Positions 51,001-54,000 of a stretch of DNA of 64,000 nt are shown here, in pieces. The number at the start of each line of letters is the position of its first letter. The first letter of the stretch is position 1. Source of the stretch: Escherichia coli (GTDB lineage: Bacteria; Pseudomonadota; Gammaproteobacteria; Enterobacterales; Enterobacteriaceae); NCBI RefSeq assembly GCF_965641715.1, contig NZ_OZ282453.1; one strand, written 5' to 3'. A program made the position numbers.

Positions 51001-54000
51001 ATTTCTATTGATGCTTTCCAGTCGTAATCAATGATGTATTTTTTGATGATTGACATCTGTTCATATCCTCACAGATAAAAAATCGCCCTCACATTAGAGG
51101 GCAAAAAAGATTTCCAATAATCAGAACAAGTCGGCTCCTGTTTAATTATGAGCGACATTGCTCCGTGTATTCACTCGTTGGAATGAATGCACAGTGCAGT
51201 GTTTATTCTGTTGTTTATGCCAAAAATAAAGGCCACTATCAGGCAGCTTTGTTGTTCTGTTTACCAAGTTCTCTGGCAATCATTGCCGTCGTTCGTATTG
51301 CCCATTTATCGACATATTTCCCATCTTCCATTACAGGAAACATTTCTTCAGGCTTAACCATGCATTCCGATTGCAGCTTGCATCCATTGCATCGCTTGAA
51401 TTGTCCACACCATTGATTTGTATCAATAGTCGTAGTCATACGGATAGTCCTGGTATTGTTCCATCACATCCTGAGGATGCTCTTCGAACTCTTCAAATTC
51501 TTCTTCCATATATCACCTTAAATAGTGGATTGCGGTAGTAAAGATTGTGCCTGTCTTTTAACCACATCAGGCTCGGTGGTTCTCATGTACCCCTACAGCG
51601 AGAAATCGGATAAACTCTATTCACCCCTACAGAGAGCAAAAGAGAAACGCCGATGAACAACTCATGGTGGCAGGAACTAATGCATTTTTTCCTGCAAGGA
51701 ATGACACTTAAACAGTTGATTCATATGCTAATCATCCTGATCATATTGATTATTGTTATGCCGGTAAGCGTAAAAGAATGGATAAACCTGCATAATCCAG
51801 AAATCCTTCCTCATTACTGGATGTATTACATCCTGTTGTTTTGCGTTAGCTATGTGCTTAACGGCGTTGTTAATTCCGCTTATCACGCTGTGACTGAAAG
51901 AATTGAGGTATCCGCTGCTCAGAAGCGCAAATCTAAAGAAGAAAAATATGTGCAAGATTTGTTTGATTCATTAACTCTTGGAGAAAGAGCGTATTTGGCA
52001 TTCGCTGTAGCCGCTAATAACCAGCTACAAACGGAAAAGGGAGCTCATGAATCAATTTCATTGCTCAAAAAAGGACTCCTCGTTCGAAGGCCTCCTGCTG
52101 TTGGATATCCTGATACTGACCGTTTCGTTATCCCTGAAAGCTATAGACATGAGTGCTACATTAGGTTTGCCGGGAAGGCAGACAGCCTTATGGATGAACT
52201 TATCGCTCAGGATAAGCATGGCAAAAACAAGTAATTAGCAAATGAATTTATCATCTCGCCGTCAGTTGTTTTGATTTCCGGTAGCCTGCCGCGTAAATGG
52301 CTACGTTTGGCAGGCAAATACTTCCACTGCATTCATCTGCCTTCTTGCAGCGAAGGCTTCCGAGTGATGCTGCTTTGTCTGCTCTGACGCAACCAGAGAG
52401 CTTTAGCGCAATTTTTCGCGCCAGTCGCTGTTCTTGCATTGCCTGCTCACGTTGAGCCTGTCTGCGTGCTCTGCGGCGATTTCTGGCGTTATCGTCAGCC
52501 AGATATGTAATGACTACTGCCATGTTGACCTCCGATGATTGACTTTGGCGGTGACGCGCCGGGTGCTTATCTTCCGGTTGCCGTCGTGCAGCTGCACTTC
52601 ACGTCACCCCAAAGCCAACTACTCTTTGGTTCCCGCATTTCGGCGGGACAATCCCATCAATGTTAAAGAGCCTGCCAATCTGTTCCGTTTGGCTACCAGC
52701 GTCCTGCTGATGACTTGAATTTAAGATTTCTTTAATTGTTGGTCAAGGGTGTTTTTGAAGAAAACTTAAATTTTATTGCGAAGTTTAAGTTTTGCTTTGA
52801 TTTTTAAAGGAAAGAAAAAAAGGGGCGAATGCCCCTTATGGAAGGTTTGCTATTTTTGCATCGACAACTACACCGATGATTTTGCAGTTCCCGTTGATCT
52901 CAATCATCGGATATTGTGGGTTAAGTGGTTTTAGAAACCTTCTGCCAGCATCAATAACTAACTTCTTGAAAGTTGCCTCGTTTTCTCCTTCGAGCTTTGC
53001 CACTACCAGCTTCCCATTACGAGGTTCTACTTCTGGATCGACTAGTATTATCATCCCTTCCGGGATGCTAAGACCGGCTGGAGCCGTCATCGAATCACCC
53101 TTTACGTCCAGCCAAAACGAATCTTCTGAACAATCTACGGTTGTATCGTACCAGTTATCTATTGCACGCTTATGATATGGCTCTACAGCTTCCATCCAAC
53201 ATCCTGCGCTTACCCAACTAATTAGAGGATACGAACCTCTTGGATCATGCCTGCTGTGATAGGCAATGTTTGAAAGACTATCTTCTCCTTTCAACAAGTA
53301 ATCAGGGGAGCACTGTAAAGCCTTGGCTAAAGCCAATAGGTTTTCGCCATTGGGCTCAGTTTCAGAACGCTCCCATTGGGAAATAGCAACATTAGACACG
53401 CCAACCATCTTGCCAAGGGCAGCCTGCCTAATCTTAAGTTCTTTTCTGCGAGCGCGAATACGCTCACCCATCAGTTGTGTATTCATAGTTAAGACATCTT
53501 AAATAAACTTGACTTAAGATTCCTTTGATAGATAATTTAAGTGTTCTTTAATTTCGGAGCGAGTCTATGTACAAGAAAGATGTTATCGACCACTTCGGAA
53601 CCCAGCGTGCGGTAGCTAAAGCGTTAGGCATTAGCGATGCAGCAGTCTCTCAGTGGAAGGAAGTCATCCCAGAGAAAGACGCCTATCGACTGGAAGTCGT
53701 TACAGCTGGCGCCCTGAAGTATCAAGAAAGTGCTTATCGCAAAGCGGCATAAGCAAATTGCTCTTTAACAGTCATGGTCCTTATTCCCGCCGAAATGCGG
53801 GAATACAACGCGCATCAGTTGGTGCGTATAACTTCTTATTTGTTAAGGAAATACTTACATATGCAACTTACAAGTACTCGCAAGAAAGCGAATGCAATCA
53901 CAAGCAACATCCTGAATCGAATTGCTGTACGTGGTCAGCGAAAGGTTGCTGATGCATTAGGGATTAATGAATCGCAAATTTCGCGATGGAAAGACAGCTT

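What the first reader, a model, noticed from the sequence alone, without database searches (positions are those of the whole stretch)
51239..52234. Restriction-alleviation (ral) and superinfection-exclusion (sieB) genes present
These are the recognisable defence-related functions of the prophage, conserved from lambda: Ral modulates type I restriction-modification and SieB aborts superinfecting lambdoid phage. They define what is already explained before proposing anything new.
Basis: established knowledge. Interest (0 to 1): 0.25.

Follow-up and report, generated by a model that had tools for sequence, protein, structure and literature searches.

The report
Known phage genes ral and sieB
Two intact, already well-known prophage genes are here: ral, which helps phage DNA escape a host restriction enzyme, and sieB, which kills cells superinfected by rival phages; the finding is correct but ordinary, and the sieB copy is the Salmonella phage P22 type, not the lambda type.

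Summary
Window 51239..51439 (-) encodes a 66-aa Ral that is 65/66 identical to lambda Ral. Window 51653..52234 (+) encodes an intact 193-aa SieB. Neither gene has a frameshift or truncation. Both exact proteins are already named Ral and SieB in RefSeq and occur on at least 1000 public contigs.

One correction is needed: sieB is not "conserved from lambda". It is 20% identical to lambda SieB (BLASTP E 0.58) and about 82% identical to Salmonella phage P22 SieB. The DNA matches lambda from ea10 through ral up to about 51617, then switches to P22-type sequence.

The locus holds more than two ORFs:
- orf28.
- The P22-mapped sieB promoter (51586..51616) and transcription start (51623).
- The conserved internal Met25 start of Esc (51725), the SieB inhibitor.
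- A 126-nt antisense stretch (51532..51657, -) that is 96% identical to P22 sas RNA.

A confident structure model shows SieB as two transmembrane helices, a stalk helix and a C-terminal winged-helix domain. The four cysteines of Ral are invariant in 22 homologues. Ral is phage counter-defence rather than host defence.

Verdict: ordinary, already known, low interest.

The parts
51239..51439 (-). ral CDS, 66 aa, restriction-alleviation protein. Four invariant cysteines: C11, C17, C20, C26.
   Evidence: ORF. Pfam PF11058 at 162.5 bits. 65/66 identical to lambda Ral. phrog_1055. Cysteines invariant in 22 homologues.
51423..51509 (-). orf28 (lambda lambdap47 equivalent), 28-aa acidic peptide that overlaps the ral start. 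Function unknown.
   Evidence: Translation. Lambda annotation. phrog_16060 at 69 bits. DNA identical to lambda.
51406..51617 (.). Block conserved in all three phages: 90-100% identical between the window and P22 in 30-nt windows, and 97-100% between the window and lambda. It spans the ral 5' end, orf28, most of the sas-like RNA and the sieB promoter. The lambda-type to P22-type mosaic joint lies at its right edge, about 51617/51618.
   Evidence: Identity profile. Alignments.
51532..51657 (-). sas-like antisense RNA region, 126 nt. It is complementary to the sieB promoter, leader, ribosome-binding region and start codon.
   Evidence: 122 of the 127 positions of the P22 'P22A-sas' RNA sequence in Table 2 of PMC13397905 are identical here, with 4 substitutions and 1 deletion. 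The 3' ~100 nt are also present in lambda at 34380..34480. There is no Rfam family for it. Expression here is inferred, not shown.
51586..51616 (+). sieB promoter (PsieB), mapped from the P22 annotation. -35 TGTACC at 51586..51591, -10 TAAACT at 51611..51616. The mapped transcription start is A at 51623.
   Evidence: P22 BK000583 and AF527608 promoter and RNA-start annotation, mapped through alignment A2. Every promoter base is identical to P22. The simple consensus scan did not call it.
51589..51598 (+). First copy of the 10-bp direct repeat ACCCCTACAG, inside the -35/spacer of PsieB.
   Evidence: Only two copies in 64 kb, against 0.06 expected. Conserved in P22 and lambda.
51623..51632 (+). 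Second copy of ACCCCTACAG. It starts at the mapped sieB transcription start.
51653..52234 (+). sieB CDS, 193 aa, P22-type superinfection exclusion protein B. Predicted parts: helix 4-14, TM1 about 19-35, TM2 plus stalk helix 56-105, winged-helix-like domain about 107-172.
51725..52234 (+). esc reading frame nested in frame within sieB. It starts at Met25 and encodes 169 aa. In P22 this product inhibits SieB.
   Evidence: P22 esc CDS annotation, mapped to 51725. Met25 is conserved in 18 of 21 family members, including lambda. Translation at this start here is inferred.
51083..51104 (-). Terminator-like hairpin followed by a T-run, downstream of ral in the leftward operon, between ral and ea10. 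Conserved with lambda.
   Evidence: Terminator scan. Near-identical to lambda apart from 3 substitutions. I recall that it corresponds to the lambda tL2 cluster; this was not tested.
50688..51056 (-). Context: ea10 homologue (DUF2528), 122 aa, the next gene downstream of ral.
   Evidence: PF10800 at 161 bits for both the window ORF and lambda Ea10.
52251..52523 (-). Context: N-type antiterminator, 90 aa, convergent with sieB (16-bp gap). Leftward transcription through it runs antisense across sieB.
   Evidence: PF25694 N_peptide at 57.5 bits. phrog_271. Its DNA shows no close similarity to lambda N or P22 gene 24: about 23-67% identity to P22 in 30-nt windows, and unalignable with the lambda slice used.

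Best explanation
This is the standard ral-sieB segment of the early-left (pL) region of a lambdoid prophage in an E. coli chromosome. It is built as a mosaic. A lambda-type segment (ea10, ral, orf28) is joined, inside a ~210-bp block shared by lambda and P22, to a P22-type sieB/esc gene.

Ral (66 aa) is made from the leftward early operon of an infecting or induced phage. [quoted passage not shown] This converts the maintenance methyltransferase into a de novo one, so unmodified phage DNA gets methylated instead of cut. Its four invariant cysteines probably form a small metal-binding or disulfide knot that holds the fold (inferred).

sieB is transcribed in the opposite direction from its own promoter, which is not under prophage-repressor control, so the lysogen makes it. 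SieB is an inner-membrane protein with two TM helices, a stalk helix and a cytoplasmic winged-helix domain (predicted). When a heterologous lambdoid or P22-like phage reaches mid lytic cycle, SieB shuts down macromolecular synthesis, so the cell dies without releasing progeny (abortive infection).

The same gene makes Esc from the internal Met25 start. In P22, Esc blocks SieB. The phage's own antisense sas RNA covers the SieB start site but not the Esc start, shifting translation from SieB to Esc and so protecting the phage from its own system.

Shown here: gene integrity, family membership, mosaic structure, and conservation of the promoter, esc start and sas sequence. Taken from the literature on lambda and P22: the activities. 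Inferred: membrane topology, the sensor role of the winged-helix domain, a membrane-based killing step, and the metal site in Ral.
For: Identity and integrity.

Prophage context: chromosomal dsdC and UpaE genes to the left, then the torI-exo-bet-gam-kil-cIII-ea10-ral-sieB-N-cI-cro-cII-O-P order.

Mosaic: the window is 97-100% identical to lambda up to 51617. It is 93-100% identical to P22 from 51406 to about 51900 and 60-100% (mostly 70-90%) in the 3' half of sieB.

Regulation: the promoter, RNA start and esc start map base for base from the P22 annotation. Met25 is conserved in 18 of 21 homologues. The sas-like RNA is 96% identical to the sequenced P22 sas.

Functions from papers:
- Ral: PMC3874165 and PMC12707154.
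- SieB, Esc and sas: PMC10883804, PMC7380047, PMC12197685 and PMC10002423.

Ral cysteines are invariant. Both exact proteins are widespread and already named.
Against: No experiment has been done on this allele or this prophage.

- The P22-type SieB here differs from P22 SieB at about 18% of residues, mostly in the C-terminal domain. Its target range could therefore differ.
- The consensus promoter scan did not detect PsieB. The mapped promoter has a weak -35 and a 19-bp spacer.
- There is no obvious Shine-Dalgarno sequence before Met25.
- The 5' end of the RNA-seq sas (127 nt) differs from the 105 nt quoted for sas in a review, so the exact ends are uncertain. I could not find a convincing sigma-70 promoter for it by eye.
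- The winged-helix similarity is fold-level only (Foldseek E >= 0.027, no hit at or below 0.001).
- The Ral model was poor (pLDDT 64), so the metal-site idea rests on conservation alone.
- Whether the host carries a type IA system for Ral to act on was not checked.
Confidence: 0.9

Rival explanations
1. The genes are intact relics in a defective prophage. They are not expressed or have no effect in this host: Ral because the host has no type IA restriction system, SieB because the promoter is too weak or its target phages are absent.
For: Several neighbouring early-left genes are pseudogenes in the RefSeq annotation (internal stop, frameshift, partial). No integrase lies next to the excisionase-like torI at the left end. 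The consensus scan does not find PsieB.
Against: Both ORFs are full length. The promoter, esc start and sas sequence are all preserved at 96-100% identity to the functional P22 versions. The identical proteins occur on at least 1000 contigs, which argues for maintained function. The recombination, immunity, replication, lysis and head genes look complete within the window.
Confidence: 0.07
2. The 193-aa protein is a SieB-family member that has diverged to a different job, for example an exclusion or regulatory protein with another trigger or target, so the P22 SieB/Esc/sas model does not transfer.
For: The C-terminal, winged-helix half is the variable part. It falls to 60-90% DNA identity with P22 in places. 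Across the family, several homologues share only the N-terminal ~80 residues. Lambda and P22 SieB are themselves only about 20% identical yet differ in which phages they exclude (literature).
Against: About 82% identity over the full length with P22 SieB, no indels except at the last residues, and the same regulatory elements. A change of target range is plausible. A change of mechanism is not indicated by anything seen.
Confidence: 0.03

Closest known systems
Bacteriophage lambda Ral (NP_040622.1, Pfam PF11058)
   Same: Same length (66 aa) and 65/66 residues identical. Same position downstream of orf28 and upstream of ea10 in the leftward operon. The surrounding DNA is 97-100% identical.
   Different: A single K7T substitution, which is also the residue found in P22 Ral and in most homologues.
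Salmonella phage P22 SieB / Esc / sas (BK000583: sieB 29758..30336, esc 29830..30336)
   Same: About 82% protein identity over the full length. Promoter bases are identical, with the same RNA start and the same Met25 Esc start. The antisense sas region is 96% identical. Same position between ral and the N-type antiterminator.
   Different: 193 aa against 192 aa, with a different C-terminal tail (…QDKHGKNK against …QDEQLKK). About 34 substitutions, concentrated in the stalk and winged-helix half. The host is E. coli rather than Salmonella. The adjacent antiterminator gene shows no close DNA similarity to P22 gene 24. Closest relatives are E. coli phages ev207, PhiR63_2, 2G7b (99-99.5%), HK140 (96.3% DNA identity over the ral-sieB segment) and VT1-Sakai (92%).
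Bacteriophage lambda SieB (NP_597779.1)
   Same: Same Pfam family PF14163 (103.5 bits for lambda, 79.5 here). Same map position and orientation. Same two-TM plus C-terminal-domain layout and a conserved internal Met. The upstream ~100 nt (promoter and the 3' part of the sas-like sequence) are shared.
   Different: Only 20% identity, with pairwise BLASTP not significant (E 0.58). The coding DNA is unalignable from 51618 onward. This gene is therefore not 'the lambda sieB'.

Membership tests
Ral (antirestriction protein Ral, Pfam PF11058 / phrog_1055) | Sequence match to the family profile above the curated threshold, over the full length | tested here: met
   162.5 bits against a cut-off of 25, covering positions 1-66 of 66. 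phrog_1055 at 166 bits. 98% identical to lambda Ral.
Ral (antirestriction protein Ral, Pfam PF11058 / phrog_1055) | Location in the leftward early operon of a lambdoid phage, between the N/sieB region and ea10/cIII | tested here: met
   The gene order kil-cIII-ea10-ral-orf28-sieB-N-cI is the same as in lambda.
Ral (antirestriction protein Ral, Pfam PF11058 / phrog_1055) | Conserved Cys-x5-Cys-x2-Cys-x5-Cys motif. This is my own observation on the family, not a published criterion. | tested here: met
   C11, C17, C20 and C26 are invariant in 22 homologues from Escherichia, Salmonella, Citrobacter, Providencia, Proteus, Pantoea and Erwinia.
Ral (antirestriction protein Ral, Pfam PF11058 / phrog_1055) | Alleviates restriction and enhances modification by type IA R-M enzymes (EcoKI, EcoBI) | not testable with these tools
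   The function is known for lambda Ral from the literature. It needs plating assays.
SieB (superinfection exclusion protein B, Pfam PF14163 / phrog_1301) | Sequence match to the family profile above the curated threshold | tested here: met
   79.5 bits against a cut-off of 26. phrog_1301 at 405 bits over 1-193 of 193. About 82% identical to P22 SieB.
SieB (superinfection exclusion protein B, Pfam PF14163 / phrog_1301) | Own rightward promoter between ral and the N gene, so that it is transcribed against the pL operon and can be expressed from the prophage | tested here: met
   The orientation is opposite to ral and N. The P22-annotated PsieB and RNA start map to 51586..51616 and 51623 with all bases identical. 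Activity was not measured.
SieB (superinfection exclusion protein B, Pfam PF14163 / phrog_1301) | In-frame internal start that gives Esc, the truncated inhibitor | tested here: met
   Met25 at 51725 aligns with the annotated P22 esc start. It is conserved in 18 of 21 homologues. Translation was not measured.
SieB (superinfection exclusion protein B, Pfam PF14163 / phrog_1301) | Antisense sas RNA across the SieB translation start | tested here: met
   51532..51657 (-) is 96% identical to the P22 sas sequence reported in PMC13397905. Transcription here is not shown.
SieB (superinfection exclusion protein B, Pfam PF14163 / phrog_1301) | Aborts lytic growth of superinfecting heterologous phages (stops RNA, DNA and protein synthesis) | not testable with these tools
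   Known for P22 and lambda SieB from the literature. It needs efficiency-of-plating and physiology assays.
   20% identity, BLASTP E 0.58. The DNA is unalignable beyond 51617. The gene is the P22-type allele.
Known anti-phage defence systems in PADLOC-DB | Match to a defence-system protein model | tested here: not met
   Ral had no hit. SieB had only a marginal match to 2TM-TIR (E 0.0078, 14.6 bits) that 20 other family members did not reproduce. I treat it as transmembrane composition bias.

The most novel reading that the evidence does not exclude
SieB is a membrane-tethered winged-helix sensor. The variable cytoplasmic winged-helix domain would recognise a nucleic acid or protein made mid-cycle by the invading phage, and the conserved two-TM module would then collapse membrane function. 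Esc, which lacks the first 24 residues, would act as a dominant-negative partner in mixed oligomers.

The shared N-terminal module with swapped C-terminal domains across the family would then be a cassette system for changing target specificity. The paired ACCCCTACAG repeats at the promoter and in sas could be a further, undescribed control site. I found no solved structure and no molecular mechanism for SieB in the papers I could search.
Probability: 0.3. Interest if true: 0.4.

Novelty: already known. Interest (0 to 1): 0.1.

Why it matters
It matters mainly as bookkeeping. This part of the prophage is explained by two textbook accessory functions, so it need not be considered when looking for new biology in the window.

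The useful corrections are these:
- The exclusion gene is the P22 allele placed behind a lambda-type ral by recombination in a shared block. Predictions about which phages the lysogen excludes should follow P22-type SieB, not lambda SieB.
- The gene comes with its self-protection circuit (Esc and sas).

The predicted two-TM plus winged-helix architecture of SieB and the invariant Cys4 motif of Ral are small, testable leads. The molecular mechanisms of both proteins remain largely unresolved despite about 50 years of genetics.

Tried and rejected
1. PADLOC hit of SieB to '2TM-TIR' (E 0.0078). I rejected it as homology because only 1 of 21 family members gave it, and the other weak hits (PDC-M02A, CARF_TM) were scattered. 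It is probably transmembrane composition.

2. Structure prediction of Ral. The result was poor (pLDDT 64, Cys-rich part below 50), so I ran no fold search and make no structural claim.

3. Sequence search of solved structures. Nothing meaningful came back for SieB (best hit is a GPCR TM segment, E 0.006) and nothing at all for Ral.

4. Rfam search for a sas family. There is none. The only hit passing its family threshold in 48-56 kb is the lambda cIII thermoregulator.

5. Folding of the antisense strand 51560..51730. It is not more stable than shuffles (z -0.63), so I make no claim of a special structure.

6. Consensus promoter scan. It did not find PsieB or a promoter for sas. PsieB is placed only by transfer from the P22 annotation.

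7. Primary papers (Ranade & Poteete 1993, J Bacteriol and Genes Dev) are not held. Details of sas and Esc come from reviews, GenBank annotation and a 2026 RNA-seq paper.

8. The AFDB50 fold library was unavailable. The BFVD search returned only SieB relatives and small winged-helix proteins.

9. NCBIfam has no model matching these proteins.

10. I checked other candidate accessory genes of the prophage for known defence models. None matched.

Full report
**What is there**

The finding points to window 51239..52234. Listing ORFs and translating them shows two intact genes at the stated ends.
- A 66-aa ORF on the minus strand, 51239..51439.
- A 193-aa ORF on the plus strand, 51653..52234.

Family searches identify both clearly.
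- The first matches Pfam Ral (PF11058) over its whole length at 162.5 bits.
- The second matches Pfam SieB (PF14163) at 79.5 bits against a cut-off of 26.
- PHROGs gives phrog_1055 'restriction alleviation ral' and phrog_1301 (SieB, 405 bits, full length).

The neighbouring genes are exo, bet, gam, kil, cIII and ea10 (DUF2528) on one side. On the other side are an N-type antiterminator, a cI/C2-type repressor, cro, cII, O and P. This is the early-left region of a lambdoid prophage.

The window is 100% identical to the chromosome of E. coli TL20, where RefSeq already names these two ORFs Ral and SieB. Both exact protein sequences are found on at least 1000 public contigs.

**Comparison with lambda**

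Ral is 65/66 identical to lambda Ral, differing only by K7T. The DNA from ea10 through ral and the small orf28 to about 51617 is 97-100% identical to lambda.

SieB is different. Against lambda SieB it shows 20% identity and a non-significant BLASTP E-value of 0.58. The DNA cannot be aligned to lambda beyond 51617.

The gene is instead the allele of Salmonella phage P22. It is about 82% identical in protein over the full length. DNA identity is 93-100% in the first ~250 nt and mostly 70-90% in the 3' half. Its closest relatives are E. coli phages ev207, PhiR63_2, 2G7b, HK140 and VT1-Sakai.

Lambda SieB, P22 SieB and this protein all belong to PF14163 and sit at the same map position. 'SieB' is therefore right, but 'conserved from lambda' is not.

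The switch from lambda-type to P22-type sequence falls at the right edge of a ~210-bp block (51406..51617) that is nearly identical in lambda, P22 and the window. This is a typical mosaic joint in shared sequence.

**Anatomy between and inside the two genes**

The P22 GenBank records annotate a sieB promoter, the sieB RNA start, and a nested in-frame gene, esc. Mapping them through the alignment gives the following.
- Promoter at 51586..51616, with every base identical to P22.
- RNA start at 51623.
- esc start at Met25, position 51725.

Met25 is conserved in 18 of 21 family members, including lambda.

A 2026 RNA-seq study gives the sequence of the P22 antisense RNA sas (PMC13397905). The window carries it at 51532..51657 on the minus strand, with 4 substitutions and 1 deletion in 127 nt. 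It covers the sieB promoter, leader and start codon, but not the esc start.

Lambda shares the 3' ~100 nt of this sequence just upstream of its own sieB. This probably explains why the block is so conserved.

Inside it, the 10-mer ACCCCTACAG occurs twice, at 51589 and at 51623, the second copy exactly at the mapped RNA start. It occurs nowhere else in 64 kb, against 0.06 expected. Both copies are conserved in P22 and lambda. I have no explanation for them.

**How it most likely works**

For Ral I rely on reviews of type I enzymes. Ral converts the EcoKI methyltransferase from a maintenance enzyme to a de novo enzyme. Unmodified phage DNA is then modified rather than cut. [quoted passage not shown] Ral therefore serves the phage against host defence, not the lysogen.

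Aligning 22 homologues from several enterobacterial genera shows all four cysteines (C11, C17, C20, C26) invariant. This suggests a small metal or disulfide knot. The structure model was too poor to say more.

For SieB, the literature says the P22 system stops macromolecular synthesis midway through the lytic cycle of superinfecting P22-like phages, but not of P22 itself (PMC10883804, PMC7380047). The gene makes both SieB and its inhibitor Esc, and sas RNA shifts translation towards Esc (PMC12197685, PMC10002423). All these elements are conserved here, so I transfer the model with high confidence for the circuit. Confidence is lower for the range of phages excluded, because the C-terminal half has diverged.

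**New structural information on SieB**

An exhaustive HMMER search found only 40 representative relatives. Several share just the N-terminal ~80 residues.

An AlphaFold model built on 21 sequences is confident (pLDDT 90.5). It shows these parts.
- A short N-terminal helix.
- Two hydrophobic helices, about 19-35 and 56-78 (hydropathy).
- A long stalk continuing from the second of these to residue 105.
- A compact C-terminal domain, about 107-172.

The basic stretch after the second TM helix suggests that the domain is cytoplasmic (inference). A membrane-anchored winged-helix sensor coupled to a membrane effector is my working mechanism, but it is not demonstrated.

**Things that led nowhere**

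These are listed in the field for rejected ideas. They include a marginal PADLOC '2TM-TIR' hit not reproduced by the rest of the family, the lack of an Rfam family for sas, and an unremarkable antisense fold. The primary 1993 papers were also not held.

**Verdict**

The finding is correct and ordinary: two known genes, already annotated as such in public records. The corrections are that sieB is P22-type rather than lambda-type, that Ral is counter-defence, and that the locus includes esc, the sieB promoter and the sas antisense RNA. Novelty is 'already known' and interest is low.

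Noticed in passing
window 51589..51598 and 51623..51632 (+): A 10-bp direct repeat, ACCCCTACAG, occurs only at these two places in the 64-kb window (0.06 expected). 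One copy lies in the sieB promoter and the other starts at the mapped sieB RNA start. Both also lie inside the sas-like antisense RNA and are conserved in P22 and lambda. Function unknown.
   Followed up: partly
window 51406..51617: A ~210-bp block is 90-100% identical among lambda, P22 and this prophage, although the flanking ral (about 70-85% to P22) and sieB (unalignable to lambda) diverge. The lambda-type to P22-type mosaic joint sits at its right edge.
   Followed up: yes
window 51239..51439 (-), Ral residues 11, 17, 20, 26: The Cys-x5-Cys-x2-Cys-x5-Cys motif is invariant in 22 Ral homologues from at least seven enterobacterial genera. This suggests a metal-binding or disulfide knot. The AlphaFold model is of low confidence in exactly this part.
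   Followed up: partly
window 51653..52234 (+), SieB residues ~107-172: A confident model gives SieB a C-terminal winged-helix domain on a long stalk after two TM helices. Across the family the N-terminal membrane module is conserved while the C-terminal domains vary.
   Followed up: yes
window 52251..52523 (-): The 90-aa N-type antiterminator (Pfam N_peptide, 57.5 bits) shows no close DNA similarity to lambda N or P22 gene 24. RefSeq annotates it only as 'hypothetical protein' in the identical TL20 genome. The adjacent repressor (52836..53486) is 216 aa, with HTH_3 and Peptidase_S24 domains. It looks like P22 C2 from memory, but I did not align them.
   Followed up: partly
window 60376..60891 (-): A 171-aa ORF lies in reverse orientation between the lysis genes and the small terminase gene, a moron-like position. 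It has only a sub-threshold Pfam DUF2441 match and no PADLOC match.
   Followed up: partly
window ~44785..44985 (-) and leftwards: The left end of the prophage has a torI (excisionase-like) gene with no integrase next to it. Chromosomal genes (UpaE adhesin, dsdC) follow. This resembles the KplE1/CPS-53 arrangement, where int lies at the far end (recalled, not tested). The right end is outside the window.
   Followed up: no
window ~45751..47499 (-): Several early-left accessory genes are annotated as pseudogenes in the identical RefSeq genome: an internal stop, a partial DNA-repair protein, and a frameshifted Ea22-like gene. ral and sieB remain intact.
   Followed up: no
window 50570..50628 (-): A strong Rfam match to the lambda cIII thermoregulator element (RF01804, 88.5 bits) lies at the start of cIII.
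   Followed up: no
window ~58147..58221 (+): RefSeq annotates a tRNA-Asn gene just downstream of the Q antiterminator gene, ahead of the lysis cassette.
   Followed up: no
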